From the NCBI RefSeq assembly GCF_009914755.1, contig NC_060933.1: a stretch of 64,000 bases of DNA; one strand, 5' to 3'. Positions within the stretch are counted from its first letter, which is position 1, and every line of letters starts with the position of its first letter. Position numbers and translations under genes: made by a program. This document shows positions 1,551 through 45,495 of this stretch, in pieces. The stretch comes from the human T2T-CHM13v2.0 reference genome, Homo sapiens. Under the pieces are notes generated by a model, which saw nothing but the letters and a program-made list of their open reading frames with translations, did no database searches and had not been told where the DNA came from.

Positions 1551-4139
1551 CATTCCCCTGTACTCGGGTTGATTCCAATCCATTCCATTCCAATCCATGC
1601 CATTCCACTCGTGTTGATTCCGTTCTTTCCATTCCATTCAAGTTGAATCCATTCCATTGCATTCCATTCCATTCGATTCCATTCGATTGCACTCGGGTTG
1701 ATTCCATTCCATTGCATTCCATTCCATTCCATTCCGTTCCATTCCATTCCATTACATTCGGATTGATTCTATTCAATTCCCTTACACTCCATTACATTCC
1801 ATTCCATTCGGGTAGTTTCCATTCCATTCCATTCCATTCCTCTCCATTCCATTGAACTCGGGTTGATTCCATTCCATTGCATTCCATTCCATTCCATTCC
1901 ATTCCATTCCGTTCCATTCCATTCCATTACATTCGGATTGATTCTATTCAACTCCCTTACTCTCCATTACATTCCGTTCCATTCGGGTTGTTCCATTCCA
2001 TTCCATTCCATTCCACTCCATTCCATTGCACTCGGGTTGATTCCATTCCATTCCATTCCATTCCATTCCATTCCATTCCATTCCGTTCCGGAAGATTCCA
2101 TTCCATTGCATTCCATTCCATTCCATTCCCCTGCACTCGCGTTGATTCCATTCCATTCCATTTGATTCCATTCCATTCCATTCCATTCCATTCCGGAAGA
2201 TTCCATTCCATTGCATTCCATTCCATTCCATTCCCCTGCACTCGCGTTGATTCCATTCCATTCCATTCCATTCCATTCCATTCCGTTCCGTTCCGTTCCA
2301 TTCCATTCCAATCCATTCCATTCCATTCCATTCCATTCCGTTCCGTTCCATTCCATTCCATTCCATTCTATTTGGGTTAATTCCATTCCATTCCATTGGA
2401 TTGCAATCGAGTTGATTCCATTCCATTCCATTCCATTCCATTCCATTCCATTCCATTCCTTTCCATTCCATTACGGGTGACTCCATTCCATTGCATTCCA
2501 TTCCATTCCATTCCCCTGTACTCGGGTTGATTCCATTCCATTCCATTCCAATCCATGCCATTCCACTCGTGTTGATTCCATTCTTTCCATTCCATTCAAG
2601 TTGAATCCATTCCATTGCATTGCATTCCATTCGATTCCATTCGATTGCACTCGGGTTCATTCCATTCCATTCCATTCCATTCCATTCCATTCCGTTCCGT
2701 TCCATTCCATTCCATTCTATTCGGATTGATTCTATTCAATTCCCTTACACTCCATTACATTCCATTCCATTCGGGTAGTTTCCATTCCATTCCATTCCAT
2801 TCCTCTCCATTCCATTGCACTCGGGTTGATTCCATTCAATTGCATTCCATTCCATTCCATTCAATTCCATTCCGTTCCATTCCATTCCATTACATTCGGA
2901 ATGATTCTATTCAACTCCCTTACTCTCCATTACATTCCATTCCATTCGGGTTGTTCCATTCCATTCCATTCCATTCCACTCCATTCCATTGCACTCGGGT
3001 TGATTCCATTCCATTCCATTCCATTCCATTCCGGAAGATTCCATTCCATTGCATTCCATTACATTCCATTACCCTGCACTCGCGTTGATTCCATTCCATT
3101 CCATTCCATTCCATTCCGTTCCATTCCATTCCTTTCCGTTCCATTCCATTCCATTCCATTCCATTCCATTCCGTTCCGTTCCGTTCCGTTCCATTCCATT
3201 CCATTCTATTCGGGTTAATTCCATTCCATTCCATTCGATTGCAATCGAGTTGATTCCATTCCATTCCATTCCATTCCATTCCATTCCATTCCATTCCTTT
3301 CCATTCCATTACGGATGATTCCATTCCATTGCATTCCATTCCATTCCATTCCCCTGTACTCGGGTTGATTCCATTCCATTCCATTCCAATCCATGCCATT
3401 CCACTCGTGTTGATTCCATTCTTTCCATTCCATTCAAGTTGAATCCATTCCATTGCATTCCATTCCATTCGATTCCATTCGATTGCACTCGGGTTGATTC
3501 CATGGCATTGCATTCCATTCCATTCCATTCCATTCCATTCCATTCCTTTCCATTCCATTCCATTCGGATTCATTCTATTCAATTCCCTTACACTCCATTA
3601 CATTCCATTCCATTCGTGTAGTTTCCATTCCATTCCATTCCATTCCTCTCCATTCCATTGCACTCGGGTTGATTCCATTCCATTCCATTCCATTCCATTC
3701 CATTCCATTCCATTCCATTCCGGATGATTCCATTCCATTGAATTCCATTCCATTCCATTCCCCTGCACTTAGGTTGATTCCATTCCATTCCATTCCATTC
3801 CTTTCTGTTCCATTCAATTCCATTCCATTCCATTCTATTCGTGTTAATTCCATTCCATTCTATTCCATTCCATTCCATTGAAATCGAGTTGATTCCATTC
3901 CATTCCATTCCATTCCATTCCATTCCATTCCGGATGATTCCATTCCATTGCATTCCATTCCATTCCATTCCCCTGCACTCGGGTTGATTCCATTCCATTC
4001 CATTCCATTCCATTCCATTCCATTCCATTCCACTCGGGTTGATTCCATTCTATTCCTTTCAATTCCATTCCATTCCATTGCAATCGAGTTGATTCCATTC
4101 GAGTTGAATCCATTCCATTCCATTCCATTCCATTGCACA

Positions 4140-5680
4140 CGGGTTCATTCCATTCCATTCCATTCCATTCCGTTCCATTCCATTCCATTCCATTTCATTC
4201 CATTCCATTCTATTCCGTACCATTCCATTCCATCCCATTCCATTCTGTTCCATTCCATGCCATTACACTCGGGTTGATTCCATTCCTTTCCATTACATTC
4301 TTATTGAATCCATTCCATTCCAATCCATTCGAATCCATTCCATTGCACTCGGGTTGATTCCATTCCATTCCATTCCATTCCATTCCATTCCATTCCATTA
4401 CATTCGGATTGATTCTATTCAATTCCCTTACACTCCATTACATTCCATTCCATTCGGGATGTTTCCATTCCATTCCATTCCATTCCACTCCATTCCATTG
4501 CATCAGGTTGATTGCATTCCATTCCATTCCATTCCATTCCGGATGATTCCATTCCATTGCATTCCATTCCATTCCATTCCCCTGCACTCGGGTTGATTCC
4601 ATTCCATTCCATTCCATTCCATTCCATTCCATTCCATTCCGTTCCATTCCATTCCATTGCATTCTATTCCGGTTAATTCCATTCCATTCCATTCGATTCC
4701 ATTCCATTCCATTGCATTCCATTCCATTGCCATCGAGTTGATTCCATTCCATTCCATTCCATTCCGTTCCGGATGATTCCATTCCATTCCATTCCATTCC
4801 ATTCCATTCCCCTGCAGTCGGGTTGATTCCATTCCATTCCATTCCATTCCATTCCATTCCATTCCATTGCATTCCATTCCGTTCCATTCCATTCCATTCC
4901 ATTCCATTCTATTCAGGTTAATTCCATTCCATTCCATTCCATTCCATTCCATTCCAATCGAGTTGATTCCATTCCATTCCATTCCATTCCACTACATTCC
5001 AGTCCTTTCCATTCCATTACACTCGGGTTGATTCCATTCTATTCCATTCTATTCCATTCCATTCCATTGCAATCCAGTTGATTCCATTGCTTTGCATTCC
5101 ATTCCATTCCATTCCATTCCGGATGATGCCATTCCATTGCATTCCATTCCATTCCATTCCCCTGCACTCGGGTTGATTCCATTCCATTCCACTCCATTCC
5201 TTTCCATTCCATTCCATTCCATTGTATTCGGGTTAATTCCATTCCATTCCATTCCATTCCATTCCATTCCAATACATTCCTTTACAATCGAGTTGATTCC
5301 ATTCCATTCCATTCCATTCCATTCCACTCCAGTCCTTTCCATTCCATTCCACTCGGGTTGATTCCATTCTATTAGTTTCCATTCCATTCCATTCCCTTCC
5401 ATTCCACTCTGGTTGATTCCATTCCTTTCCATTCCACTCGAATACATTCCCTCCTATTCCACTCGGAACGATTCCATTCCATTCCATTCCATTCCATTCC
5501 ATTGCATTCCATTCCATTCCATTCCAGTTAGTTCCATTCCATTCTATTCCGTACCATTCCTTTCCATTCCATTCCTTTCCACTCGTGTTGATTCCATTCA
5601 TTTCCATTCCATTCGGTTTGAAGGCATTCCATTCCATTCAATTCCATTCCATTCCATTCCATTCCATTCCATTCCATTCC
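4140..5680 (+). repeat. Second copy of the 1-1550 segment
   Basis: Begins (gcaca)cgggttcattcc like position 1 and is colinear with it until ~5680. Confidence 0.85.
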
Positions 5681-6828
5681 ATTCTTTTCCATTCCATTGC
5701 AATCGAGTTGAATCCATTGCCTTTCATTCCATTCCATTCCATTACATTACATTCCGGAAGATTCCATTCCATTGCATTCCATTCCATTCCATTCCCCTGC
5801 ACTCGCGTTGATTCCATTCCATTCCATTCCATTCCATTCAATTCCATTCCATTCCATTCCTTTCTATTCCATTACGGATGACTCCATTCCATTGCATTCC
5901 ATTCCATTCCATTCCCCTGTACTCGGGTTGATTCCATTCCATTCCATTCCACTCCATTCGGTTCCGTTGCATTCCATTCTATTGCATTCCATTCTATTCG
6001 GGTTAATTCCATTCCATTCTATTCCATTCCATTCCATTCCATTCCATTGCAATGGAGTTGATTCCATTCCCTTCCATTCCATTCCGGATGATTCCATTCC
6101 ATTGCATTCCATTCCATTCCATTCCCCTGCACTCGTGTTGATTCCATTCCCTTCCATTCCATTCCATTCCGTTCCATTCCCTTCCTTTCCGTTCTATTCC
6201 GGTTAATTCCATTCCATTCCATTCCATTCCATTCCATTCCACTCCATTGCAATCGAGTTGATTCCATTCCATTCCTTTCCATTCCATTCCATTGCCTTGC
6301 ATTGCACTCGGGTTGATTCCATTCCTTTCTTCCCACTCCATTACATTCCCTTCCATTCCACTCGGAATGATTGATTCCATTCCATTCCATTCCATTTCAT
6401 TCCATTGCAATCCATTCCAATCCATTCCGTTCCATTCCATTCCACTCGAGTTGACTTCATTCCATTCCTTTCCATTCCATTCCATTCCTTTCCACTCGAG
6501 TTGATTCCATTCCATTCCATTCCATTGCATTCCATTCTATGCCATTCCACTCGGGTTGATTCCATTCCTTTGCATTCCATTCCATTCCATTGCATTCCAT
6601 TCCATTTCATTCCGTTGCATTCCATTCCATTACATTCGGATTGATTCTATTCAACTCCCTTACTGTCCATTACATTCCATTCCATTCGGCTTGTTCCATT
6701 CCATTCCATTCCATTCCACTCCATTGCATTGCACTCGGGTTGATTCCATTCCACTCCATTCCATTCCATTCCATTCCGGATGATTCCATTCCATTGCATT
6801 CCGTTCCATTACATTCCCCTGCACTCGC

Positions 6829-9800
6829 GTTGATTCCATTCCATTCCATTCCATTCCATTCAATTCCTTTCCATTACCATTCGTTCCATTCCATTCTATT
6901 CCGTACCATTCCATTCCATTCCATACCATTCCATTCCATTCCATTCCATTCCATTCCATTCCATTCCATTCCATTCCATTCTATTCCATTCCACTGCAAT
7001 CGAGTTGAATCCATTGCATTTCATTCCATTCCATTGCATTCCATTCCATTCCGGAAGATTCCATTCCATTGCATTCCATTCCATTCCATTCCCCTGCACT
7101 CGCGTTGATTCCATTCCATTCCATTCCATTCCATTCCATTCCATTCCATTCCGTTCCGTTCCGTTCCTTTCCATTCCATTCCATTCCATTCCATTCCATT
7201 CCGTTCCGTTCCATTCCATTCCATCCCATTCTATTCGGGTTAATTCCATTCCATTCCATTCGATTGTAATCGAGTTGATTCCATTCCATTCCATTCCATT
7301 CCATTCCATTCCATTCCTTTCCATTCCATTACGGATGATTCCATTCCATTGCATTCCATTCCATTCCATTCCCCTGTACTCGGGTTGATTCCATTCCATT
7401 GCATTCCAATCCATGCCCTTCCTCTCGTGTTGATTCCATTCTTTCCATTCCATTCAAGTTGAATCCATTCCATTGCATTCCATTCCATTCGATTCCATTC
7501 GATTGCACTCGGGTTGATTCCATTCCATTGCATTCCATTCCATTCCATTCCATTCCATTACATTCGGATTGATTCTATTCAATTCCCTTACACTCCATTA
7601 CATTCCATTCCATTCGGGTAGTTTCCATTCCATTCCATTCCATTCCTCTCCATTCCATTGCACTCGGGTTGATTCCATTCCATTGCATTCCATTCCATTC
7701 CATTCAATTCCATTCCGTTCCATTCCATTCCATTACATTCGGATTCATTCTATTCAACTCCCTTACTCTCCATTACATTCCATTCCATTCGGGCTCTTCC
7801 ATTCCATTCCATTCCATTCCACTCCATTCCATTGCACTCGGGTTTATTCCATTCCATTCCATTCCATTCCATTCCATTCCATTCCATTCCGGAAGATTCC
7901 ATTCCATTGCATTCCATTCCATTCCATTCCCCTGCACTCGGGTTGATTCCATTCCATTCCACTCCATTCCGTTCCATTCCATTCCATTCCATTGTATTCG
8001 GGGTAATTCCATTCCATTCCATTCCATTCCATTCCATTCCATTCCATTACAATCGAGTTGATTCCATTCCATTCGATTCCATTCCAGTCCTTTCCATTCC
8101 ATTCCACTCGGGTTGATTCCATTCTATTAGTTTCCATTCCATTCCATTCCCTTCCATTCCACTCTGGTTGATTCCATTCCTTTCCATTCCACTCGAATAA
8201 ATTCCCTCCTATTCCACTCGGAACGATTCCATTCCATTCCATTCCATTCCATTCCATTCCATTCCATTTCGTTCCATTCCATTCTATTCCGTATCATTCC
8301 ATTCCATTCCATTCCATTCCATTCCATTCCACTCGTGTTGATTCCATTCCTTTCCATTCCATTCGGTTTGAAGGCATTCCATTCCATTCCATTCCATTCC
8401 ATTCCATTCCATTCCATTGTACTCTGGTTGATTGCATTCCATTGCATTCCATTCCATTCCATTCCGTTGCATTCCATTCCATTACATTCGGATTGATTCT
8501 ATTCAACTCAATTACATTCCATTACATTCCATTCCATTCGGGTTGTTCCATTCCATTCCATTCCATTCCACTCCATTCCATTGCACTCGGGTTGATTCCA
8601 TTCCATTCCATTCCATTCCATTCCATTCCATTCCATTCCGGATGATTCCATTCCATTGCATTCCGTTCCATTACATTCCCCTGCACTCGCGTTGATTCCA
8701 TTCCATTCCATTCAATTCCATTAAATTACAATTCGTTACATTCCATTCTATTCCGTACCATTCCATTCCATTCCATTCCATTCCGTTCCATTCCGTTCCA
8801 TTGCATTCCATTCCATTCTATTCGGGTTCATTCTATTCCATTCCATTCCGTTCCATTCTATTCCATTCCATTGCAATCGAGTTGAATTCATTGCGTTTCA
8901 TTCCATTCCATTCCATTCCATTCCATTCCATTCCGGAAGATTCCATTCCATTGCATTCCATTCCATTCCATTCCCCTGCACTCGCGTTGATTCCATTCCA
9001 TTCCATTCCATTCCATTCCATTCCATTCCGTTCCGTTCCATTCCACTCTATTCCATTCCATTCCATTCCATTCCATTCCGTTCCTTTCCATTCCATTCCA
9101 TTCTATTCTATTCGGGTTAATTCCATTCCATTCCATTCGATTGCAATCGAGTTGATTCCATTCCATTGCATTCCATTCCATTCGATTCCATTCGATTGCA
9201 CTCGGGTTGATTCCATTCCATTGCATTCCATTCCATTCCATTCCCCTGCACTCGGGTTGATTCCATTACATTCCATTCCATTACATTCCATTCCATTCCG
9301 TTCCATTTCATTCTATTCGGGTTAATTCCATTCCATTCCATTCCACTCCATTCCAGTCCTTTCCTTTCCATTCCACTCGGGTTGATTCCATTCTATTCCT
9401 TTTAATTCCATTCCATTCCATTGCAATCGAGTGGATTCCATTCGAGTTGAATCCATTCCATTCCATTCCATTCCATTCCATTGCACACGGGTTCATTCCA
9501 TTCCATTCCATTCCATTCCATTCCATTCCATTCCATTCTATTCCATTTCATTCCATTCCGTTCTATTCCGTACCATTCCATTCCATCCCATTCCATTCCG
9601 TTCCATTCCATGCCATTACACTCGGGTTGATTCCATTCCTTTCCATTCCATTCTTGTTGAATCCATTCCATTCCATTCCATTCCATTCCATTCGAATCCA
9701 TTCCATTGCACTCGGGTTGATTCCATTCCATTCCATTCCATTCCATTTCATTCCATTCCATTCCATTACATTCGGATTGATTCTATTCAATTCCCTTACA

Positions 9801-12800
9801 CTCCATTACATTCCATTCCATTCGGGATGTTTCCATTCCATTCCATTCCATTCCACTCCATTCCATTGCATCAGGTTGATTGCATTCCATTCCATTCCAT
9901 TCCATTCCGGATGATTCCATTCCATTGCATTCCATTCCATTCCATTCCATTCCGTTCCGGATGATTCCATTCCATTCCATTCCATTCCATTCCATTCCCC
10001 TGCAGTCGGGTTGATTCCATTCCATTCCATTCCATTCCATTCCATTTTATTCCATTCCGTTCAATTCCATTCCATTCCATTCTATTCGGGTTAATTCCAT
10101 TCCATTCCATTCCATTCCATTCTGTTCGGGTTAATTCCATTCCATTCCATTCCATTCCATTCCATTCCATTCTATTCCATTCCATTGCAATCGAGTTGAA
10201 TCCATTGCATTTCATTCCATTCCATTCCATTCCATTCCATTCCATTCCATTCCGGAAGATTCCATTCCATTACATTCCATTCCATTCCATTCCCCTGCAC
10301 TCGCGTTGATTCCATTCCATTCCATTCCATTCCATTCCATTCCGTTCCGTTCCGTTCCGTTCCTTTCCATTCCATTCCATTCCATTCCATTCCGTTCCGT
10401 TCCATTCCATTCAATTCCATTCTATTCGGGTTAATTCCATTCCATTCCATTCGATTGCAATCGTGTTGATTCCATTCCATTCCATTCCATTCCATTCCAT
10501 TCCATTCCATTCCATTCCATTCCTTTCCATTCCATTACGGATGATTCCATTCCATTGCATTCCATTCCATTCCATTCCCCTGTACTCGGGTTGATTCCAT
10601 TCCATTGCATTCCAATCCATGCCATTCCACTCGTGTTGATTCCATTCTTTCCATTCCGTTCAAGTTGAATCCATTCCGTTGCATTATATTCCATTCGATT
10701 CCATTCGATTTCACTCGGGTTGATTCCATTCCATTGCATTCCATTCCATTCCATTCCATTCCATTCCGTTCCATTCCATTCCATTACATTCGGATTGATT
10801 CTATTCAACTCCCTTACTCTCCATTACATTCCATTCCATTCGGGTTGTTCCATTCCATTCCATTCCATTCCACTCCATTCCATTGGACTCGGGTTTATTC
10901 CATTCCATTCCATTCCATTCCATTCCATTCCGGAAGATTCCATTCCATTGCATTCCATTCCATTCCATTCCCCTGCACTCGCGTTGATTCCATTCTATTC
11001 CATTCTATTCCATTCCTTTCCCTTCCTTTCCGTTCCATTCCGTTCCATTCCGTTCAGTTCCGTTCCACTCCATTCCATTCCATTCTATTCGGGTTAATTC
11101 CATTCCATTCCATTCGATTGCAATCGAGTTGATTCCATTCCATTCCATTTCATTCCATTCCATTCCATTCCATTCCATTCCATTCCTTTCCATTCCATTA
11201 CGGATGATTCCATTCCATTGCATTCCATTCCATTCCATTCCCCTGTACTCGGGTTGATTCCATTCCATTCCATTCCAATCCATGCCCTTCCACTCGTGTT
11301 GATTCCATTCTTTCCATTCCATTCTAGTTGAATCCATTCCATTGCATTCCATTCCATTCGATTCCATTCGATTGCACTCGGGTTGATTCCATTCCATTGC
11401 ATTCCATTCCATTCCATTCCATTCCATTCCATTCCATTCCGTTCCATTCCATTCCATTACATTCGGATTGATTCTATTCAACTCCCTTACTCTCCATTAC
11501 ATTCGATTCCATTCGGGTTGTTCCATTCCATTCCATTCCATTCGACTCCATTCCATTGCACTCGGGTTGATTCCATTACATTCCATTCCATTCCGGAAGA
11601 TTCCATTCCATTGCATTCCATTACATTCCATTCCCCTGCACTCGCGTTGATTCCATTCCTTTCCATTCCATTCCATTCCATTCCATTCCATTCCGTTCCA
11701 TTCCATTCCATTCCATTCCATTCCATTCCATTCCGTTCCGTTCCATTCCATTCCATTCCATTCTATTCGGGTTAATTCCATTCCATTCCATTCCATTGCA
11801 ATCTTGTTGATTCCATTCCATTCCATTCCATTCCATTACATTCGGATTGATTCTATTCAACTCCCTTACTCTCCATTACATTCCATTCCATTCGGGTTGT
11901 TCCATTCCATTCCATTCCATTCCACTCCATTCCATTGCACTCGGGTTTATTCCATTCCATTCCATTCCATTCCATTCCATTCCATTCCGGAAGATTCCAT
12001 TCCATTGCATTCCATTCCATTCCATTCCCCTGCACTCGCGTTGATTCCACTCCATTCCATTCCATTCCATTCCATTCCATTCCATTCCATTCCTTTCCGT
12101 TCCATTCCATTCCATTCCATTCCATTCCATTCCGTTCCGTTCCGTTCTATTCTATTCCATTCCATTCTATTCGGGTTAATTCCATTCCATTCCATTCGAT
12201 TGCAATCGAGTTGATTCCATTCCATTCCTTTCCATTCCATTCCATTCCATTCCATTCCATTCCTTTCCATTCCATTACGGATGATTCCATTCCATTGCAT
12301 TCCATTCCATTCCATTCCCCTGTACTCGGGTTGATTCCATTCCATTCCATTCCATTCCATTCTATTCCATTCCATTCCATTCCATTCCGGAAGATTCCAT
12401 TCCATTGCATTCCATTCCATTCCATTCCCCTGCACTCGCGTTGATTCCATTCAATTCCATTCCATTCCATTCCATTCCATTCCATTCCGATCCGTTCCGT
12501 TCCATTCCATTCCATTCCATTCCATTCCGTTCCGTTCCATTCCATTCCATTCCATTCCATTCCATTCCATTCCATTCTATTCGGGTTAATTCCATTCCAT
12601 TCCATTCAATTGCAATCAAGTTGATTCCATTCCATTCCATTCCATTCCATTCCATTCCTTTCCATTACATTACGGATGATTCCATTCCATTTAATTCCAT
12701 TCCATTTCATTCCATTCCATTCCATTCCCCTTTACTCGGGTTGATTCCATTCCATTCCATTCCAATCCATGCCATTCCACTCGTGTTGATTCCATTCTTT

Positions 12801-14814
12801 CCATTCCATTCAAGTTGAATCCATTCCGTTGCATTCCATTCCATTCGATTCCATTTGATTGCACTCGGGTTGATTCCATGGCATTGCATTCCATTCCATT
12901 CCATTCCATTCCATTCCATTCCATTCCATTCCATTCCTTTCCATTCCATTCCATTCCATTCCATTCGGATTCATTCTATTCAATTCCCTTACACTCCATT
13001 ACATTCCATTCCATTCGTGTAGTTTCCATTCCATTCCATTCCATTCCTCTCCATTCCATTGCACTCTGGTTGATTCCATTCCATTCCATTCCATTCCATT
13101 CCATTCCATTCCGGATGATTCCATTCCATAGAATTCCATTCCATTCCATTCCCCTGCACTTGGGTTGATTCCATTCCATTCCATTCCATTCCTTTCTGTT
13201 CCATTCCATTCCATTCCATTCCATTCTATTCGTGTTAATTCCGTTCCATTCTATTCCATTTCATTCCATTGAAATCGAGTTCATTCCATTCCATTCCTTT
13301 CCATTCCATTCCTTTCCATTCCATTACTAATGATTCCATTCCATTCCATTCCATTCCATTCCATTCCCCTGCAGTCGGGTTGATTCCATTCCATTCCATT
13401 TCATTCCATTCCATTCCATTCCATTCCATTCCGTTCCATTCCATTCCTTTCAATTCTATTTGGGTTAATTCCATTCCATTCCATTCCGTTCCGTTCCATT
13501 CCATTCCATTCCATTCCATTCCGTTCCGTTCCATTCCAATCCATTCCATTCTATTCGGGTTAATTCCATTCCATTCCATTCGATTGCCATCAAGTTGATT
13601 CCATTCCATTCCATTCCATTCCATTCCATTCCTTTCCATTCCATTACGGATGATTCCATTCCATTGCATTCCATTCCATTCCATTCTCCTGTACTCGGTT
13701 TGATTCCATTCCATTCCATTCCAATCCATGCCATTCCACTCCTGTTGATTCCATTCTTTCCATTCCATTCATGTTGAATCCATTCCATTGCATTCCATTC
13801 CATTCGATTCCATTCGATTGCACTCGGGTTGATTCCATTCCATTGCATTGCATTCCATTCAATTCCATTCCATTTCATTCTATTCCGTTCCATTCCATTC
13901 CATTACATTCGGATTGATTCTATTCAATTCCCTTACACTCCATTACATTCCATTCCATTCGGGTAGTTTCCATTCCATTCCATTCCATTCCTCTCCATTC
14001 CATTGCACTGGGGTTGATTCCATTCCATTGCATTCCATTCCATTCCATTCAATTCCATTCCGTTCCATTCCATTCCATTACATTCGGATTGATTCTATTC
14101 AACTCCCTTACTCTCCATTACATTCGATTCCATTCGGGTTGTTCCATTCCATTCCATTCCATTCCACTCCATTCCATTGCACTCGGGTTTATTCCATTCC
14201 ATTCCATTCCATTCCATTCCATTCCATTCCATTCCATTCCGGAATATTCCATTCCATTGCATTCCATTCCATTCCATTCCCCTGCACTCGCGTTGATTCC
14301 ATTCCATTCCATTCCATTCCATTCCATTCCATTGCATTCCTTTCCTTTCCATTCCATTCCATTCCATTCCAATCCATTCCATTCCGTTCCGTTCCGTTCC
14401 ATTCCATTCCATTCCATTCTATTCGGGTTAATTCCATTCCATTCCATTCGATTGCAAACGAGTTGATTCCATTCCATTCTATTCCATTCCATTCCATTCC
14501 TTTCCATTCCATTACGGATGATTCCATTCCATTGCATTCCATTCCATTCCATTCCCCTGTACTCGGGTTGATTCCATTCCATTCCATTTCACTTCTTGCC
14601 ATTCCACTCGTGTTGATTCCATTCTTTCCATTCCATTCAAGTTGAATCCATTCCATTGCATTCCATTCCATTCCATTCCCCTGCAGTCGGGTTGATTCCA
14701 TTCCATTCCATTCCATTCCATTCCATTCCATTCCGTTCCGTTCCGTTCCATTCCATTCCATTCCATTCTATTCAGTTAATTCCATTCCATTCCATTCCAT
14801 TCCATTCCAATCGA
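6829..14814 (+). repeat. 7,986-bp tandem duplication, copy 1
   Basis: Identical ORF translations recur at +7986 (6896/14882, 7569/15555, 9431/17417, 13848/21834) or +7991 (10605/18596, 12405/20396). Confidence 0.95.
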
Positions 14815-30364: not shown

Positions 30365-33050
30365 CCAATCAAGTTGATTCCATTCCATTCCATTCCATTC
30401 CATTCCATTCCATTCCACTCCATTCCAGTCCTTTCCATTCCATTCCACTCGTGTTGATTCCAATGTATTCCTTTCCATTCCATTCCATTCCATTGCAATC
30501 GAGTTGATTCCATTGCTTTGCATTCCATTCCATTCCATTCCATTCCGGATGATTCCATTCCATTGCATTGCATTCCATTCCATTCCCCTGCACTCGGGTT
30601 GATACCATTCCATTCCACTCCATTCCGTTCCATTCCATTCCATTCCATTGTATTCGGGTTAATTCCATTCCATTCCATTCCATTCCATTCCATTCCATTC
30701 CATTCCATTACAATCGAGTTTATTCCATTCCATTCCATTCCATTCCAGTCCTTTCCATTCCATTCCACTCGGGTTGATTCCACTCTATTAGTTTCCATTC
30801 CATTCCATTCCCTTCCATTCCACTCTGGTTGATTCCATTCCTTTCCATTCCACTCGAATACATTCCCTCCTATTCCACTCGGAACGATTCCATTCCATTC
30901 TATTCCATTCCATTCCAATCCATTCCATTCCATTTCGTTCCATTCCATTCCATTCCGTATCATTCCATTCCATTCCATTCCATTCCATTCCATTCCATTC
31001 CATTGTACTCGGGTTGATTCCATTCCATTGCATTCCATTCCATTCCATTCCATTCCATTCCATTCCGTTGCATTCCATTCCATTACATTCGGATTGATTC
31101 TATTCAACTCCCTTACTCTCCATTACATTCCATTCCATTCGGGTTGTTCCATTCCATTCCATTCCATTCCATTCCATTCCATTGCACTCGGGTTGATTCC
31201 ATTCCTTTCCATTCCATTCCATTCCATTCCGGATGATTACTTTCCATTGCATTCCGTTCCATTACATTCCCCTGCACTCGCGTTGATTCCATTCCATTCC
31301 ATTCCATTCCATTCAATTCCATTCCATTACAATTCGTTCCATTCTATTCTATTCCGTACCATTCCATTCCATTCCATGCCATTCCATTCCATTCCACTCC
31401 ATTCCATTCCGTTCCATTCCGTTCCATTCCATTCCATTCCATTCTATTCGGATTAATTCCATTCCATTCCATTCCATTCCATTCCATTCTATTCCACTCC
31501 ATTGCAATCGAGTTGAATCCATTGCATTTCATTCCATTCCATTCCATTCCATTCCATTCCATTCCATTCCATTCCGGAAGTTTCCATTCCATTGCATTCC
31601 ATTCCATTCCATTCCCCTGCACTCGCGTTGATTCCATTCCATTCCATTCCATTCCATTCCGTTCCCTTCCATTCTATTCCATTCCATTCCGTTCCGTTCC
31701 ATTCCATTCCATTCCATTCTATTCGGGTTAATTCCATTCCATTCCATTCGATTGCAATCGAGTTGATTCCATTCCATTCCATTCCATTCCATTCCATTCC
31801 ATTCCATTCCATTCCTTTCCATTCCATTACGGATGATTCCATTCCATTGCATTCCATTCCATTCCATTCCCCTGTACTCGGGTTGATTGCATTCCATTCC
31901 ATTCCAATCCATGCCATTCCACTCGTGTTGATTCCATTCTTTCCATTCCATTCAAGTTGAATCCATTCCATTACATTCCATTCAATTTGATTCCATTCGA
32001 TTGCACTCGGGTTGATTCCATTCCACTGCATTCCATTCCATTCAATTCCATTCCATTCCATTCCATTCCAATCCATTCCATTCCATTCCATTACATTACA
32101 TTCGGATTGATTCTATTCAATTCCCTTACAGTGCATTACATTCCATTCCATTCGGGTAGTTTCCATTCCATTCCATTCCATTCCTCTCCATTCCATTGCA
32201 CTCGGGTTGATTCCATTCCATTGCATTCCATTCCATTCCTTTCAATTCCATTCCGTTCCATTCAATTCCATTACATTCGGATTGATTCTATTCAACTCCC
32301 TTACTCTCCATTCCATTCCATTCCATTCACGTTGTTCCATTCCATTCCATTCCATTCCACTCCATTCCATTGCACTCGGGTTGATTCCATTCCATTCCAT
32401 TCCATTCCATTCCATTCCATTACAATTGAGTTGATTCCATTCCATTCCATTCCATTCCATTCCAGTCCTTTCCATTCCATTCCACTCGGGTTGATTCCAT
32501 TCTATTAGTTTCCATTCCATTCCATTGCCTTCCATTCCACTCTGGTTGATTCCATTCCTTTCCATTCCACTCGAATACATTCCCTCCTATTCCACTCGGA
32601 ACGATTCCATTCTATTCCATTCCATTCCATTCCATTCCATTCCATTCCATTTCGTTCCATTCCATTCTATTCCGTATCATTCCATTCCATTCCATTCCAT
32701 TCCATTCCATTCCATTCCATTCCATTCCATTGTACTCGGGTTGATTCCATTCCATTGCATTCCATTCCATTCCATTCCATTCCATTCCATTCCATTCCAT
32801 TCCGTTCCATTCCATTATATTCGGATTGATTCTTTTCAACTTCCTTACTCTCCATTCCATTCCATTCCATTCGGATTGTTCCATTCCATTCCATTCCATT
32901 CCACTCCATTCCATTGCACTCGGGTTGATTCCATTCCATTCCATTGCATTCCATTCCGGATGGTTCCATTCCATTGCATTCCGTTCCATTACATTCCCCT
33001 GCACTCGGGTTGATTCCATTCCATTCCATTCCATTCCATTCCATTCCATT
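30365..33050 (+). repeat. ~2.7-kb segment, copy 1 (copy 2 at ~35550-38300; offset ~5.18-5.24 kb)
   Basis: ORF pairs 30518/35694, 31513/36704, 31957/37148, 32525/37716. Private markers gattactttcc (31235/36426) and acagtgcattac (32128/37319). Confidence 0.88.
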
Positions 33051-35549: not shown

Positions 35550-38300
35550 TCCAATCGAGTTGATTCCATTCCATTCCATTCCATTCCATTCCACTCCATT
35601 CCAGTCCTTTCCATTCCATTCCACTCGTGTTGATTCCAATGTATTCCTTTCCATTCCATTCCATTCCATTGCAATCGAGTTGATTCCATTGCTTTGCATT
35701 CCATTCCATTCCATTCCATTCCGGATGATTCCATTCCATTGCATTGCATTCCATTCCATTCCCCTGCACTCGGGTTGATACCATTCCATTCCACTCCATT
35801 CCGTTCCATTCCATTCCATTCCATTGTATTCGGGTTAATTCCATTCCATTCCATTCCATTCCATTCCATTCCATTCCATTCCATTACAATCGAGTTTATT
35901 CCATTCCATTCCATTCCATTCCAGTCCTTTCCATTCCATTCCACTCGGGTTGATTCCATTCTATTAGTTTCCATTCCATTCCATTCCCTTCCATTCCACT
36001 CTGGTTGATTCCATTCCTTTCCATTCCACTCGAATACATTCCCTCCTATTCCACTCGGAACGATTCCATTCCATTCCATTCCATTCCATTCCATTCCAAT
36101 CCATTCCATTCCATTTCGTTCCATTCCATTCCATTCCGTATCATTCCATTCCATTCCATTCCATTCCATTCCATTCCATTCCATTCCATTGTACTCGGGT
36201 TGATTCCATTCCATTGCATTCCATTCCATTCCATTCCATTCCATTCCATTCCATTCCGTTGCATTCCATTCCATTACATTCGGATTGATTCTATTCAACT
36301 CCCTTACTCTCCATTACATTCCATTCCATTCGGGTTGTTCCATTCCATTCCATTCCATTCCACTCCATTCCATTGCACTCGGGTTGATTCCATTCCTTTC
36401 CATTCCATTCCATTCCATTCCGGATGATTACTTTCCATTGCATTCCGTTCCATTACATTCCCCTGCACTCGCGTTGATTCCATTCCATTCCATTCCATTC
36501 CATTCAATTCCATTCCATTACAATTCGTTCCATTCTATTCTATTCCGTACCATTCCATTCCATTCCATGCCATTCCATTCCATTCCACTCCATTCCATTC
36601 CGTTCCATTCCGTTCCTTTCCATTCCATTCCATTCTATTCGGATTAATTCCATTCCATTCCATTCCATTCCATTCCATTCTATTCCACTCCATTGCAATC
36701 GAGTTGAATCCATTGCATTTCATTCCATTCCATTCCATTCCATTCCATTCCATTCCATTCCATTCCGGAAGTTTCCATTCCATTGCATTCCATTCCATTC
36801 CATTCCCCTGCACTCGCGTTGATTCCATTCCATTCCATTCCATTCCATTCCGTTCCCTTCCATTCCATTCCATTCCATTCCGTTCCGTTCCATTCCATTC
36901 CATTCCATTCTATTCGGGTTAATTCCATTCCATTCCATTCGATTGCAATCGAGTTGATTCCATTCCATTCCATTCCATTCCATTCCATTCCATTCCATTC
37001 CATTCCTTTCCATTCCATTACGGATGATTCCATTCCATTGCATTCCATTCCATTCCATTCCCCTGTACTCGGGTTGATTGCGTTCCATTCCATTCCAATC
37101 CATGCCATTCCACTCGTGTTGATTCCATTCTTTCCATTCCATTCAAGTTGAATCCATTCCATTACATTCCATTCAATTTGATTCCATTCGATTGCACTCG
37201 GGTTGATTCCATTCCATTACATTCCATTCCATTCAATTCCATTCCATTCCATTCCATTCCAATCCATTCCATTCCATTCCATTACATTACATTCGGATTG
37301 ATTCTATTCAATTCCCTTACAGTGCATTACATTCCATTCCATTCGGGTAGTTTCCATTCCATTCCATTCCATTCCTCTCCATTCCATTGCACTCGGGTTG
37401 ATTCCATTCCATTGCATTCCATTCCATTCCTTTCAATTCCATTCCGTTCCATTCAATTCCATTACATTCGGATTGATTCTATTCAACTCCCTTACTCTCC
37501 ATTCCATTCCATTCCATTCAGGATGTTCCATTCCATTCCATTCCATTCCACTCCATTCCATTGCACTCGGGTTGATTCCATTCCATTCCATTCCATTCCA
37601 TTCCATTCCATTCCAATTGAGTTGATTCCATTCCATTCCATTCCATTCCATTCCAGTCCTTTCCATTCCATTCCACTCGGGTTGATTCCATTCTATTAGT
37701 TTCCATTCCATTCCATTGCCTTCCATTCCACTCTGGTTGATTCCATTCCTTTCCATTCCACTCGAATACATTCCCTCCTATTCCACTCGGAACGATTCCA
37801 TTCTATTCCATTCCATTCCATTCCATTCCATTCCATTCCATTCCATTTCGTTCCATTCCATTCTATTCCGTATCATTCCATTCCATTCCATTCCATTCCA
37901 TTCCATTCCATTCCATTCCATTCCATTCCATTGTACTCGGGTTGATTCAATTCCATTGCATTCCATTCCATTCCATTCCATTCAATTCCATTCCATTCCA
38001 TTCCATTCCATTCCGTTCCATTCCATTCCATTCCATTCCATTCCGTTCCATTCCATTACATTCGGATTGATTCTTTTCAACTTCCTTTCTCTCCATTACA
38101 TTCCATTCCATTCGGATTGTTCCATTCCATTCCATTCCATTCCACTCCATTCCATTGCACTCGGGTTGATTCCATTCCATTCCATTGCATTCCATTCCGG
38201 ATGATTCCATTCCATTGCATTCCGTTCCATTACATTCCCCTGCACTCGGGTTGATTCCATTCCATTCCATTCCATTCCATTCCATTCCATTCCATTCCAT
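35550..38300 (+). repeat. ~2.7-kb segment, copy 2
   Basis: See copy 1. Also shares ccggaagtttcc, caattgagttg and gattcttttcaacttcc. Confidence 0.88.
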
Positions 38301-40050: not shown

Positions 40051-43019
40051 CCGTTCCATTCCATTCCATTATATTCGGATTGATTCTATTCAATTCCCTT
40101 ACACTCCATTACATTCCATTCCATTCGGGTAGTTTCCATTCCACTCCATTAAATTCCTCTCCATTCCATTGCACTCGGGTTGATTCCATTACATTGCATT
40201 CCATTCCATTCCATTCAATTCCATTCCGTTCCATTCCATTCCATTACATTCGGATTGATTCTATTCAACTCCCTTACTCTCCATTACATTCAATTCCTTT
40301 CGAGTTGTTCCATTCCATTCCATTCCATTCCACTCCATTCCATTGCACTCGGGTTGATTCCATTCCATTCCATTCCATTCCATTCCGGAAGATTCCATTC
40401 CATTGCATTCCATTCCATTCCATTCCCCTGCACTCGCGTTGATCCCATTCCATTCCATTCCATTCCATTCCATTCCATTCCATTCCTTTCCTTTCCATTC
40501 CTTTCCATTCCATTCCATTCCATTCCAATCCATTGCATTCCGTTCCGTTCCGTTCCATTCAATTCCATTCCATTCTATTCGCGTTAATTCCATTCCATTC
40601 CATTCGATTGCAATCGAGTTGATTCCATTCCATTCTATTCCATTCCATTCCATTCCTTTCCATTCCATTACGGATGATTCCATTCCATTGCATTCCATTC
40701 CATTCCATTCTCCTGTACTCGGGTTGATTCCATTCCATTCCATTCCAATCCATGCCATTCCACTCGTGTTGATTCCATTCTTTCCATTCCATTCAAGTTG
40801 AATCCATTCCATTGCATTCCATTCCATTCCATTACCCTGCAGTCGGGTTGATTCCATTCCATTCCATTCCATTACATTCCATTCCATTGCATTCCGTTCC
40901 GTTCCATTCCATTCCATTCCATTCTATTCGGGTTAATTCCATTCCATTCCATTCCATTCCAATCGAGTTGATTCCATTCCATTCCATTCCATTCCACTCC
41001 ATTCCACTCCTTTCCATTCCACTCCACTCGGGTTGATTCCAATGTATTCCTTTCCATTCCATTCCATTCCATTGCAATCGAGTTGATTCCATTGCTTTGC
41101 ATTCCATTCCATTCCATTCCATTCCCTTCCTTTCCGTTCCATTCCATTCCATTCCATACCATTGCATTCCATTCCATTCCGTTCCATTCCGTTCCATTCC
41201 ATTCAATTCCATTCTATTCGGGTTAATCCCATTCCATTCCATTCCATTCCATTCTATTCCATTCCATTGCAACCTAGTTGAATCCATTGCATTTCATTCC
41301 ATTCCATTGCATTCCATTCCGGAAGATTCCATTCCATTGCATTCCATTCCATGCCATTCCCCTGCACTCGCGTTGATTCCATTCCATTCCATTCCATTCC
41401 ATTCCATTCCATTCCATTCCATTCCGTTAGGTTCTGTTCCATTCCATTCCATTCCGTTCCGTTCCGTTCCGTTCCGTTCCGTTCCATTCCATTCCATTCC
41501 ATTCCATTCCATTCCGTTCCGTTCCATTCCATTCCATTCCATTCCATTCCATTCCATTCCTTTCCATTCCATTACGGATGATTCCATTCCATTGCATTCC
41601 ATTCCATTCCATTCCCCTGTACTCGGGTTGATTCCATTCGATTGCATTCCAATCCATGCCCTTCCACTCTTGTTGATTCCATTCTTTCCATTCCATTCAA
41701 GTTGAATCCATTCCATTGCATTCCATTCCATTCGATTCCATTCGATTGCACTCGGGTTGATTCCATTCCATTGCATTCCATTCCATTCCATTCCATTCCA
41801 TTCCATTCCGTTCCTTTCCATTCTATTACATTCGGATTGATTCTATTCAATTCCCTTACACTCCATTAAGTTCCATTCCATTCGGGTAGTTTCCATTCCA
41901 TTCCATTCCATTCCTCTCCATTCCATTGCACTAGGGTTGATTCCATTCCATTGCATTCCATTCCATTCCATTCAATTCCATTCCGTTCCACTCCATTCCA
42001 TTACATTCGGATTGATTCTATTCAACTCCCTTTGTCCCCATTACATTTCATTCCATTCGGGTTGTTCCATTCCATTCCATTCCATTCCACTCCATTCCAT
42101 TGCACTGGGGTTTATTCCATTCCATTCTATTCCATTCCATTCCATTCCATTCCATTCCGGAAGATTCCATTCCATTGCATTCCATTCCATTCCATTCCCC
42201 TGCACTCGCGTTGATTCCATTCCATTCCATTCTATTCCATTCCATTCCTTTCGTTTCCATTCCATTCCATTCCATTCCATTCCATTCCGTTCCGTTCCGT
42301 TCCGTTCCGTTCCATTCCATTCCATTCCATTCTATTCGGGTTAATTCCATTCCATTCCATTCGATTGCAATCGAGTCGATTCCATTCCATTCCATTCCAT
42401 TCCATTCCATTCCATTCCTTTCCATTCCATTACGGATGATTCCATTCCATTGCATTCCATTCCATTCCATTCCCCTGTACTCGGGTTGATTCCATTCCAT
42501 TCCATTCCGTTCCATTCCATTCCATTCCATTCCATTCCATTCCATTCCATTCCATTCCATGCCATTCCACTCGGGTTGATTCCATTTGTTTCCATTCCAT
42601 TCGAGTTGAATCCATTCCATTCCATTCTATTCCAGTCGATTCCATTCCATTGCTCACGTGTTCATTCCATTCCATTCCATTCCATTCCATTCCATTTCGT
42701 TCCATTCCATTGTCTTCCGTAGTATTCCATTCCATTCCATTCCACTCCATTCCATGCCATTCCACTCGGGTTTATTCCATTCCTTTCCATTCCATTCGGG
42801 TTGAATTCATTCCATTCCATTCCATTCAATTCCATTACATTGCACTCGGGTTGATTCCATTCCATTCCATTCCATTTCAATCCATTCCCTTCCATTCCAT
42901 TTCATTCCATTCCATTCCATTCCATTCCATCCCATTTCATTCCATTCCATTCCATGCCATTCCACTCGGGTTGATTCCATTCCTTTCCATTCCATTCTAG
43001 TTGAACCCATTCCATTCCA

Positions 43020-43066
43020 TTCCATTCCATTCCATTCCATTGCACACGGAATGGAATGGAATGGAA
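43020..43066. other. Strand-switch (inversion) junction with perfect 19-bp inverted repeat and 9-nt spacer
   Basis: ttccattccattccattcc (43020-43038) + attgcacac + ggaatggaatggaatggaa (43048-43066). The left word cattgcacacgg(gttcattcc) is truncated at GG 43048-43049, which is also the start of the first GGAAT. Confidence 0.95.
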
Positions 43067-44979: not shown

Positions 44980-45495
44980 AATGGAATGGAATGGAAACAA
45001 CCCGAATGGAATGGAATGGAATGGAGTGTAAGGAATTGAATACAATCAATCCGAATGTAATGGAATGGAATGGAACAGAATGGAATGGAATGGAATACAG
45101 TGGAATGGATTCAAACCTAGTGCAATGGAATGGAATGGAATGGAATGGAATGGAATGGAATGGATTGGATTCAAAACAAATGGAATGGAAAGCAATAGAA
45201 TCAACCCGAGTGGAATGGCATGGAATGGAATGGAATCGAATGGAATGGAATGGAAACAACCCGAATGGAATGGAATGGAATGGAGTGTAAGGAATTGAAT
45301 ACAATCAATCCGAATGTAATGGAATGGAATGGAACAGAATGGAATGGAATGGAATACAGTGGAATGGATTCAAACCTAGTGCAATGGAATGGAATGGAAT
45401 GGAATGGAATGGAATGGAATGGATTGGATTCAAAACAAATGGAATGGAAAGCAATAGAATCAACCCGAGCGGAATGGCATGGAATGGAATGGAAT
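44980..45495 (-). repeat. 259-bp tandem duplication (2 copies)
   Basis: ggaaacaacccg at 44993 and 45252; ORFs 45065/45324. Both copies share private variants gtgtaaggaattg, ggaacagaa, atacagtgg, tcaaacctag and tcaaaacaaat. Confidence 0.92.

What the first reader, a model, noticed from the sequence alone, without database searches (positions are those of the whole stretch)
2085..42168. Perfect heat-shock elements encoded by one recurrent variant word and restricted to subtype A
Seen: attccggaagattcc is an exact nTTCnnGAAnnTTCn. I count about 37 in the left arm (roughly one per 1.1 kb) and 2 in the distal A block, and none in the ~17-kb B block, where the equivalent word is attccggatgattcc (GAA to GAT). 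The variants seen (14245 G>T; ggaagtttcc at 31571 and 36762) alter only spacer positions. Known: HSF1 trimers bind inverted nGAAn triplets and drive Sat III transcription and nuclear stress bodies, whereas plain (GGAAT)n offers only head-to-tail nGAAn. Inference: these words may be the true HSF1 nucleation sites, so stress responsiveness could be patterned by subtype, dosed by duplication (+9 sites from the 8-kb event) and possibly modulated by the central CpG.
Basis: partly seen in the sequence, partly recalled or inferred. Interest (0 to 1): 0.75.

Follow-up and report, generated by a model that had tools for sequence, protein, structure and literature searches.

The report
Heat-shock elements inside chromosome 9 satellite
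One recurring 15-letter variant word scattered through the giant chromosome 9 satellite array is a textbook docking site for the heat-shock factor HSF1, present in one repeat subtype and absent from another, which sharpens a largely known story about how heat stress switches this satellite on.

Summary
The window has 39 perfect TTCnnGAAnnTTC sites (37 on +, 2 on -; 2.4 expected in shuffles). All are the word ATTCCGGAAGATTCC or spacer variants of it. None lies in a 17.8-kb B-type block (about 42.55-60.35 kb), which has no inverted nGAAn pair at all.

The word is a T>A derivative of a GGATG word in a conserved ~60-nt module, linked to a CGCG variant 36 nt downstream. It is therefore one amplified monomer lineage.

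In 20 independent 10-kb samples of the chr9 array, 166 A-like 1-kb bins held 109 sites and 34 B-like bins held 0. The genome holds 12,700 exact copies, none on contigs 1-8.

One correction: the GAT word is not B-specific. It is commoner in A.

HSF1 binding was not tested here. In print: four perfect HSEs per Y-satellite unit (Penin 2021), "putative HSEs" at 9q12 as an unpublished observation (Vourc'h 2022), and patchy HSF1 motifs matched by ChIP-seq (Franklin preprint).

New here: the exact word, its origin, its copy number, and strict-HSE density matching the primary (9, Y) versus secondary (15) hierarchy. A non-HSE sibling word is equally abundant, so selection is not shown.

The parts
2085..42168 (+). 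Field of 37 perfect three-unit heat-shock elements in the A-type left arm. 13-mer starts: 2086, 2191, 3029, 5752, 7049, 7887, 8931, 10250, 10928, 11591, 11985, 12385, 14237, 15035, 15873, 16917, 18236, 18919, 19582, 19976, 20376, 22223, 23964, 24761, 26058, 26726, 27115, 27515, 29197, 29865, 30268, 31572, 36763, 39304, 40383, 41317, 42155.
   Evidence: Spacings run from 105 to 5,191 bp, median 838 bp.
62870..62884 (-). Perfect HSE word in the distal A-type segment.
   Evidence: The module context is the same as in the left arm.
63713..63727 (-). Perfect HSE word in the distal A-type segment.
12384..12442 (+). Example of the conserved module that carries the word: ATTCC-GGAAG-ATTCC, then cattccattgcattccattccattccattcccctgcactcgCgtt. 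In sibling modules the word position holds GGATG, and the downstream site reads CGGG.
   Evidence: One search gives the contexts. Linkage of GAA with CGCG is 36 of 39 in the window and 68 of 94 in 20 other loci, against 30 of 131 for GAT and 1 of 77 for ATTAC-GGATG.
14236..14250 (+). Spacer variant ATTCCGGAATATTCC (G>T at 14245). It is still a perfect HSE.
31571..31585 (+). Spacer variant ATTCCGGAAGTTTCC. It is still a perfect HSE and also makes CCGGAAGT.
36762..36776 (+). Second copy of the ATTCCGGAAGTTTCC variant.
   Evidence: Its 103-nt context is identical to that of 31572.
6804..22850 (+). Tandem duplication of a unit of about 7,986 bp (6,804-14,789 and 14,790-22,850) carrying 9 HSE pairs.
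   Evidence: One search gives 99.4-99.7% identity at offsets 7,986/7,991.
42551..60350 (.). B-type block with a period of about 3.9 kb. It has no perfect HSE and no inverted nGAAn dimer. It holds 7 GAT words.
43040..43050 (.). Strand switch (inversion junction) from ATTCC-rich to GGAAT-rich. It lies inside B-type sequence.

Best explanation
The sites are real, perfect trimeric heat-shock elements (TTC-GAA-TTC in 5-bp register, with a purine before each GAA).

Origin. All are copies of one 15-nt word. A single T>A change (GGATG to GGAAG) made it, inside a conserved ~60-nt module of the chromosome-9 HSat3 satellite (annotated HSat3B5 in the Franklin supplement). That module variant also carries a CGCG change 36 nt downstream. 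It is therefore one monomer lineage, copied many thousands of times as A-type higher-order repeats and larger segments (such as the 8-kb duplication) were amplified. B-type repeats never acquired it.

Mechanism (inferred). On heat shock, HSF1 trimers dock first and most tightly on these words. The surrounding head-to-tail pentamers offer only weak extra contacts. HSF1 load and Sat III transcription would then be highest in A-type stretches and lowest in B-type stretches.

What is shown and what is not. Sequence anatomy, distribution, single origin and copy number are shown here. HSF1 preference for three inverted units and for a purine before GAA comes from published structures. HSF1 occupancy following motif density comes from a preprint. 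That this word in particular is the site of first binding is inference. Its high copy number needs no selection.
For: In the window.
- 39 sites against 2.4 expected.
- All are one word or its spacer variants.
- No other inverted nGAAn pair exists in 64 kb.
- The word and the GAT word share one module.
- GAA is linked to CGCG in 36 of 39 copies in the window and in 68 of 94 copies elsewhere.

Across the array.
- 20 samples of 10 kb taken every 1.4 Mb (49.5-76.1 Mb) hold 112 perfect HSEs. All are this word (94) or single spacer variants of it (18).
- 166 A-like 1-kb bins hold 109 sites and 34 B-like bins, in 5 loci, hold 0. Three of the 112 sites straddled bin edges.
- Spearman correlation of HSE count per locus is -0.70 with the B score and +0.86 with the A score.

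Genome-wide.
- 12,700 exact copies against 3 for the reversed control. None lies on contigs 1-8, and the first is at C9:49,162,019.
- Sample density of 4.7 +/- 0.64 per 10 kb over about 27 Mb predicts about 12,700 on chr9 alone.
- The word is 12,700 of the 76,189 perfect trimeric HSEs in the genome, and 12,700 of the 14,004 flanked by ATTCC on both sides.

Hierarchy across arrays.
- chrY HSat3 has its own perfect-HSE words: 4,836 and 4,895 copies, almost all on C24 at a period of about 3.55 kb.
- 20 kb of chr15 HSat3 has 0 perfect and 0 two-unit sites. About 11 would be expected at chr9 density.
- This matches 9q12 and Yq12 as primary HSF1 targets and other chromosomes as low-affinity ones (Penin 2021 and Vourc'h 2022, passages).

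Literature (passages only).
- An HSF trimer binds three nGAAn. A purine before GAA is favoured and T is excluded (Feng 2021).
- Recombinant HSF1 binds a 9q12 Sat III clone directly (Jolly 2002).
- HSF1 ChIP-seq is enriched where HSat3 motif density is high (Franklin preprint).
Against: - No binding data were analysed here.
- A sibling word that is not an HSE (ATTACGGATGATTCC) has 11,273 copies and starts at the same place on chr9. Satellite amplification alone therefore explains the abundance.
- HSF1 DNA-binding domains have been crystallised on head-to-tail Sat III repeats (cited in Feng 2021). Bulk pentamers can therefore be contacted without the word.
- Other chromosomes also form stress bodies under stronger stress or HSF1 overexpression, and the chr15 sample has no perfect HSE. 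The word is thus not needed for HSF1 to bind HSat3.
- In HT1080 cells HSF1 foci form on Y and not on 9, although chr9 carries thousands of sites. Chromatin state or HSF1 dose also decide.
- In Franklin's table, PWM-based HSF1 motif enrichment is about 10 for the chr9 blocks, 18.6 for the chr15 HSat3A5 array and about 16 for chrY (column position counted by hand). 'Motif density' in that preprint is therefore not the same thing as the strict sites counted here, and its ChIP match cannot be credited to this word without re-analysis.
- Per-chromosome counts beyond contig 9 were not visible. 'chr9-only' rests on a sample estimate with a standard error of about 14%.
Confidence: 0.6

Rival explanations
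1. Neutral passenger. The word is a chance one-base variant that rode along with an amplified monomer. HSF1 is recruited to 9q12 mainly by the sheer mass of head-to-tail GGAAT units, by imperfect sites and by chromatin state. On this view the perfect sites add little, and the A/B pattern has no functional consequence.
For: - The non-HSE sibling word has 11,273 copies against 12,700 for the HSE word.
- The word is one substitution away from a word with 20,563 copies.
- HSF1 DNA-binding domains bind head-to-tail Sat III repeats in crystals (cited).
- Arrays without perfect HSEs can still form stress bodies.
- HT1080 cells ignore chr9.
Against: - Trimeric HSF1 binds three inverted units with far higher affinity than other arrangements.
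- The two primary targets, 9q12 and Yq12, each carry thousands of perfect HSEs made by unrelated words. The sampled chr15 array carries none.
- ChIP-seq follows motif density within arrays.
- One-mismatch copies of the GAA word fall 7 at triplet positions and 20 at spacers. The siblings give 52:25 and 25:14. This is suggestive only, because copies are not independent events.
Confidence: 0.28
2. The word works mainly as a site for another factor. The candidate is an ETS-family protein, because CCGGAAG is the ETS core. Binding would be gated by methylation of the central CpG.
For: - CCGGAAG is present in 38 of the 39 sites.
- The GTTTC variant makes CCGGAAGT: 2 copies in the window and 7 in the 20 loci.
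Against: - The Franklin preprint reports that ETS motifs are not heavily enriched in HSat3, apart from an ETV5-FOXO1 composite (passage).
- The usual word has A, not T, after CCGGAAG.
- No ETS factor is known to me to mark 9q12 (recalled, not searched).
- Nothing here tests binding.
Confidence: 0.05
3. Assembly or counting artefact. On this view the regular recurrence reflects collapsed or mis-assembled satellite rather than real copies.
For: None found. Satellite arrays are hard to assemble in general.
Against: - The 39 sites sit in 27 distinct 103-nt contexts.
- The duplicated 8-kb units differ at 37 positions.
- 20 distant samples show the same word at varying density.
Confidence: 0.02

Closest known systems
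Perfect HSEs in the chromosome Y satellite III (DYZ1, HSat3A6) described by Penin et al. 2021 (PMC7889540; passages read)
   Same: Both are canonical three-unit HSEs embedded at regular intervals in an HSat3 array that is a primary HSF1 target. Both are created by array-specific variant words among head-to-tail pentamers. I found two such Y words at 4,836 and 4,895 copies, at a period of about 3.55 kb.
   Different: The words are unrelated in sequence (TTCCAGAAC and TTCGAGAAC cores against TTCCGGAAG). The Y array is a uniform 3.56-kb repeat, so its sites are evenly spaced. On chr9 the sites are mosaic, present in A-type and absent from B-type. The chr9 word has a central CpG.
HSF1 motif map of HSat3 arrays in T2T-CHM13 (Franklin et al. 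preprint, 10.1101/2024.10.22.616524; passages and supplement 3 read)
   Same: It covers the same arrays and reaches the same general conclusion: HSF1 motifs are patchy within arrays, and heat-shock ChIP-seq follows them.
   Different: That map uses motif matrices and reports enrichment per array block. It gives no word, no origin and no strict count. Its values (chr15 HSat3A5 18.6, chrY about 16, chr9 about 10) do not track the strict inverted-trimer sites counted here (chr15 0 in 20 kb).
Canonical promoter HSE, such as the HSP70 proximal element used as probe by Jolly et al. 2002 (PMC2173303)
   Same: Three inverted nGAAn units in 5-bp register. The GGAAT/ATTCC pentamers are the same letters as the HSP70 core GGAATATTCC (probe printed).
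   Different: The satellite word is not at a gene promoter. It is repeated about 12,700 times in heterochromatin, is flanked by same-orientation units rather than further alternating ones, and has exactly three units.
HSF1 DNA-binding domain on head-to-tail Sat III repeats (Neudegger et al. 2016; seen only as cited in Feng 2021)
   Same: The same satellite and the same protein domain contacting GGAAT units.
   Different: That model uses direct repeats, which a trimer cannot occupy in the optimal geometry. The word offers the inverted arrangement.

Membership tests
Canonical trimeric heat-shock element (HSE) | At least three contiguous nGAAn units in alternating orientation at 5-bp register | tested here: met
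   39 matches to TTCNNGAANNTTC. There is no fourth alternating unit, because the flanks are same-orientation TTC.
Canonical trimeric heat-shock element (HSE) | Favourable base (a purine, not T) before each GAA | tested here: met
   Read on the relevant strand, each unit is GGAAn (sequence). The rule comes from Feng 2021 passages.
Canonical trimeric heat-shock element (HSE) | HSF1 occupancy after heat shock | not testable with these tools
   There is only indirect published support at the level of array sub-regions (Franklin preprint). No read-level analysis was possible.
Canonical trimeric heat-shock element (HSE) | HSF1-dependent transcriptional activation of adjacent DNA | not testable with these tools
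   This is known for 9q12 as a whole, not for this word.
Human satellite 3, chromosome 9 array (HSat3B5) | ATTCC/GGAAT pentamer-rich tandem repeat at 9q12 | tested here: met
   About 112 ATTCC per kb. The window is placed at chr9:65.84-65.91 Mb (hub annotation). The subfamily label HSat3B5 for the chr9 blocks comes from the head row of Franklin's supplement 3. I ran no subfamily classifier.
Human satellite 3, chromosome 9 array (HSat3B5) | Frequent strand switches along the array | tested here: met
   One switch lies in the window at about 43,045. Of the 20 samples, 9 are ATTCC-rich and 11 are GGAAT-rich on the + strand. Franklin's table splits the chr9 HSat3B5 array into 235 blocks.
ETS-family binding site | Core CCGGAAGT | tested here: inconclusive
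   CCGGAAG is present in 38 of the 39 sites. The full CCGGAAGT occurs only in the 2 GTTTC variants. No binding evidence exists.

The most novel reading that the evidence does not exclude
The density of strict inverted-trimer HSEs decides two things: which satellite arrays are primary HSF1 targets, and which stretches inside the chr9 array fire. Array size and loosely defined motif density do not decide them. On this reading, a single T>A change in one monomer gave 9q12 roughly 13,000-15,000 high-affinity sites. Unrelated words did the same for Yq12. The HSE triplets of the chr9 word have since been kept intact, since one-mismatch copies avoid triplet positions 7:20 against 52:25 and 25:14 in sibling words. 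The A/B mosaic would then be a hard-wired map of stress-inducible and inert satellite.
Probability: 0.25. Interest if true: 0.65.

Novelty: new member of a known kind. Interest (0 to 1): 0.4.

Why it matters
HSF1-driven activation of 9q12 is the textbook case of heterochromatin switched on by stress. A 2022 review nonetheless says the number of HSF1 sites is unknown, and it mentions 9q12 HSEs only as an unpublished observation.

Naming the word gives three things:
- a count of about 12,700 exact copies, about one sixth of all perfect trimeric HSEs in this genome;
- a natural allelic series in the same repeat context: GAA (an HSE), GAT and ATTAC-GAT (not HSEs);
- a test that sidesteps the mapping problem, because words can be counted directly in existing ChIP reads.

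It also offers a simple sequence reason why 9q12 and Yq12 are primary targets and chr15 is not.

If the word turns out not to be preferred, HSF1 recruitment must rest on direct repeats or on chromatin. That would be equally informative.

Tried and rejected
- Per-chromosome distribution of the word. The genome search lists only the first 100 places, sorted by contig. Contigs 1-8 are shown to be empty, but contigs 10-24 could not be seen. I fell back on a density estimate.
Smaller samples were taken instead.
- Two of the guessed coordinates were not HSat3: chrY 40 Mb and chr15 14 Mb. chr9 76.8 Mb lies beyond the array end.
- A literal search for the word and its reverse complement in 8.4 million papers gave 2 hits. 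The one I opened (GAATCTTCCGGAA) lies in a printed Cas12a coding sequence. The other, a zebrafish ZNF32 paper, I judged unrelated from its title and abstract start in the listing and did not open.
- Constraint test by position of one-mismatch copies. The skew exists, but copies are amplified together, so it is not a valid count of events. By variant type it is 4 triplet to 9 spacer for GAA, against 12:7 and 10:7 for the siblings. I ran no significance test on the types. I do not claim selection.
- I considered a STAT-type reading of TTCCGGAA and dropped it. The half-sites are 2 nt apart, and as I recall STAT sites need a gap of 3-4.
- No matrix-based HSF1 scan was run, because no motif library is on the script machine.
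- Two recent HSat3 papers (PMC13705371, PMC13634412) were searched for HSE or motif passages. They give no site-level analysis.
Full report
WHAT IS THERE. The window is chr9:65.844-65.908 Mb of T2T-CHM13, inside the large HSat3 array (hub annotation; placement repeated). A search for TTCNNGAANNTTC on both strands gives 39 matches: 37 on the + strand between 2,086 and 42,167, and 2 on the - strand at 62,871 and 63,714. Dinucleotide-preserving shuffles give 2.43 +/- 1.61, and none of 100 reaches 39. Every match is TTCCGGAAGATTC (36), TTCCGGAAGTTTC (2; 31,572 and 36,763) or TTCCGGAATATTC (1; 14,237). The exact 15-mer ATTCCGGAAGATTCC occurs 35 times.

SUBTYPES. A 24-mer sharing matrix of 1-kb bins, made without reference to the word, shows one distinct block with an internal period of about 3.9 kb. 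The rest of the window, including the last 3.6 kb, is one related family. With A-only and B-only 24-mers the edges fall at about 42.55 kb and 60.35 kb. The strand switch from ATTCC-rich to GGAAT-rich is at about 43,045, so it lies inside B-type sequence and not at the A/B edge.

In the 17.8-kb B block there is no three-unit site and no two-unit inverted pair (TTCnnGAA or GAAnnTTC). In A-type sequence, every such pair belongs to the word.

WHAT THE WORD IS. Both ATTCCGGAAGATTCC and ATTCCGGATGATTCC sit at the same place in one conserved module. It reads ...ccaTTCCGGA[A/T]GATTCcattccattgcattccattccattccattcccctgcactcg[C/G]gtt. A third common form has ATTAC-GGATG.

The GAA form is linked to CGCG 36 nt downstream:
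- in the window, 36 of 39 GAA copies, against 4 of 35 GAT copies;
- in 20 other loci, 68 of 94 GAA copies, against 30 of 131 GAT and 1 of 77 ATTAC-GGATG copies.

The HSE word is therefore a one-base (T>A) derivative of the GGATG word. It arose in one monomer lineage and then spread by amplification. The 8-kb event is a tandem duplication (6,804-14,789 and 14,790-22,850; 99.4-99.7% identity) that carries 9 site pairs.

The window has 22 copies in the left A arm, 7 in B and 2 in distal A. In the independent samples it runs at 0.79 per kb in A-like bins and 0.18 per kb in B-like bins.

BEYOND THE WINDOW. I took 20 stretches of 10 kb every 1.4 Mb from 49.5 to 76.1 Mb of the same chromosome. All are HSat3, 9 ATTCC-rich and 11 GGAAT-rich on the + strand. 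They hold 112 perfect sites: 94 are the exact word and the other 18 are single spacer variants of it.

Each 1-kb bin was scored with the window's A-only and B-only 24-mers:
- 166 A-like bins hold 109 sites;
- 34 B-like bins, in 5 loci, hold none;
- 3 of the 112 sites straddled bin edges and were not counted.

The subtype restriction is thus a property of the whole array.

Genome-wide counts:
- The exact word occurs 12,700 times against 3 for the reversed control. None lies on contigs 1-8, and the first is at C9:49,162,019.
- The sample density (4.7 +/- 0.64 per 10 kb) over about 27 Mb predicts about 12,700. Few copies can lie elsewhere, but contigs 10-24 were not visible to me.
- The GAT word has 20,563 copies and the ATTAC-GGATG word 11,273.
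- Perfect trimeric HSEs number 76,189 in the genome, against 43,994 for the reversed control. This one word supplies about one in six.
- Of the 14,004 HSEs flanked by ATTCC on both sides, 12,700 are this word.
- The proximal end of the array (49.07-49.29 Mb) is dense in GAT words and nearly free of the GAA word.
- The array ends between 76.1 and 76.8 Mb.

OTHER ARRAYS. Two chrY HSat3 samples gave two different perfect-HSE words. These have 4,836 and 4,895 copies. All but 46 and 1 of them lie on contig 24, at a spacing of about 3.55 kb. This agrees with Penin et al. 2021, who report four perfect HSEs per 3,564-bp Y unit and HSF1 ChIP there (passages).

Eight chr15 HSat3 samples (20 kb, spanning 8-13 Mb) have no perfect site and no two-unit pair. 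About 11 would be expected at chr9 density. Their nearest approach is TTCGAGCACATTC at 0.6 per kb.

HOW IT MOST LIKELY WORKS. From published structures (Feng 2021, passages):
- an HSF trimer optimally contacts three inverted nGAAn;
- the guanine of GAA is the main contact;
- thymine methyls of TTC are also contacted;
- a purine before GAA is favoured.

The word meets all of these, since each unit reads GGAAn. The GAT sibling keeps the guanine but loses one A:T contact in the central unit, which should weaken binding without abolishing it (inference).

Recombinant HSF1 binds a 9q12 Sat III clone directly, more weakly than a consensus HSE (Jolly 2002, passages). I could not check whether that clone carries the word, because its sequence is only in a figure.

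The Franklin preprint states that HSF1 motifs are enriched in sub-regions of HSat3 arrays and that heat-shock HSF1 ChIP-seq is enriched where motif density is high (passages).

I therefore think it most likely (about 0.6) that these words are the high-affinity docking sites and that A-type stretches load more HSF1 than B-type stretches. Binding to this word, the effect of the CpG, and any effect on transcription are not shown.

EVIDENCE THAT CUTS THE OTHER WAY.
- The non-HSE ATTAC-GGATG word is as abundant as the HSE word. Copy number reflects amplification and is no sign of selection.
- HSF1 domains also bind head-to-tail repeats in crystals.
- Other chromosomes form stress bodies under harsher conditions.
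- HT1080 cells use Y and ignore chr9.
- In Franklin's supplement 3, matrix-based HSF1 motif enrichment is about 10 for the 235 chr9 HSat3B5 blocks, 18.6 for chr15_HSat3A5 and about 16 for chrY HSat3A6 (column positions counted by hand). That measure does not track strict sites. The published ChIP match cannot simply be credited to this word.
- Conversely, strict-site density (chr9 0.56 per kb, chrY present, chr15 0 in 20 kb) fits the primary/secondary hierarchy better than that measure does. The chr15 sample is small.

A HINT OF CONSTRAINT, NOT MORE. Among 15-mers one mismatch away from the GAA word in 264 kb, 7 copies change a triplet position and 20 change a spacer. The figures are 52:25 for the GAT word and 25:14 for the ATTAC word. 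By variant type the counts are 4:9 against 12:7 and 10:7. Copies are co-amplified, the CpG sits at spacer positions, and the GAT word is older. I do not claim selection.

WHAT IS KNOWN AND WHAT IS NEW. Already in print:
- HSF1 binds and activates 9q12 Sat III;
- 'HSE-like sequences scattered in HSat3' (review);
- perfect HSEs in the Y satellite;
- putative HSEs at 9q12 as an unpublished observation, with the number of sites unknown;
- patchy motif density matched by ChIP-seq.

I found none of the following in print, after a literal search for the word (checked) and four topic searches:
- the identity of the chr9 word;
- its one-base origin in a shared module;
- its linkage to CGCG;
- its restriction to one repeat subtype;
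- its copy number;
- the contrast with chr15.

Only open-access papers and preprints were searched. Of the Franklin supplements, I read two parts of file 3 and only term-searched the PDF and file 2. I file the finding as a new member of a known kind, of moderate interest. Its main value is that it turns 'what does HSF1 read in 9q12' into a word-counting test on data that already exist.

Noticed in passing
window 42551-60350, junction at about 43040-43050: The ATTCC-to-GGAAT strand switch lies about 500 bp inside B-type sequence, not at the A/B edge. G-rich Sat III transcription would run away from this junction on both sides. The B block has its own period of about 3.9 kb.
   Followed up: partly
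G000 contig 24 (chrY), e.g. 27.9-29.2 Mb; loci L024, L026: The Y-chromosome HSat3 has its own perfect-HSE words: CTTCCAGAACATTCC (4,836 copies) and TTTCGAGAACCTTCC (4,895 copies). Almost all are on contig 24, about one each per unit of about 3.55 kb, and mostly in one orientation.
   Followed up: yes
whole genome: Perfect trimeric HSEs are strand-asymmetric genome-wide (31,067 forward, 45,122 reverse). The two Y words explain about 9,000 of the 14,055 excess. The remainder was not traced.
   Followed up: partly
G000 C15 8-13 Mb (L021-L023, L029-L031, L033, L034): The sampled chr15 HSat3 array (HSat3A5 in Franklin's table) has no perfect HSE, no inverted nGAAn pair and no CCGG in 20 kb. It nonetheless scores 18.6 for HSF1 motif enrichment in the Franklin supplement, above the chr9 blocks (about 10).
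   Followed up: partly
G000 C9 49.07-49.29 Mb (L028 and the listings): The proximal edge of the chr9 array is a third flavour. GAT words occur every few hundred bases, and only one GAA word appears before 49.288 Mb.
   Followed up: no
window, e.g. 12435-12442, and across L001-L020: GAA-type modules carry CTCGCGTT where sibling modules carry CTCGGGTT. This adds a second CpG pair 36 nt from the HSE and marks the lineage.
   Followed up: yes
window 10460-12967 versus 18451-20958: Within the 8-kb tandem duplication the offset shifts from 7,986 to 7,991 and back. One pentamer was gained and one lost since the duplication, alongside 37 mismatches.
   Followed up: partly
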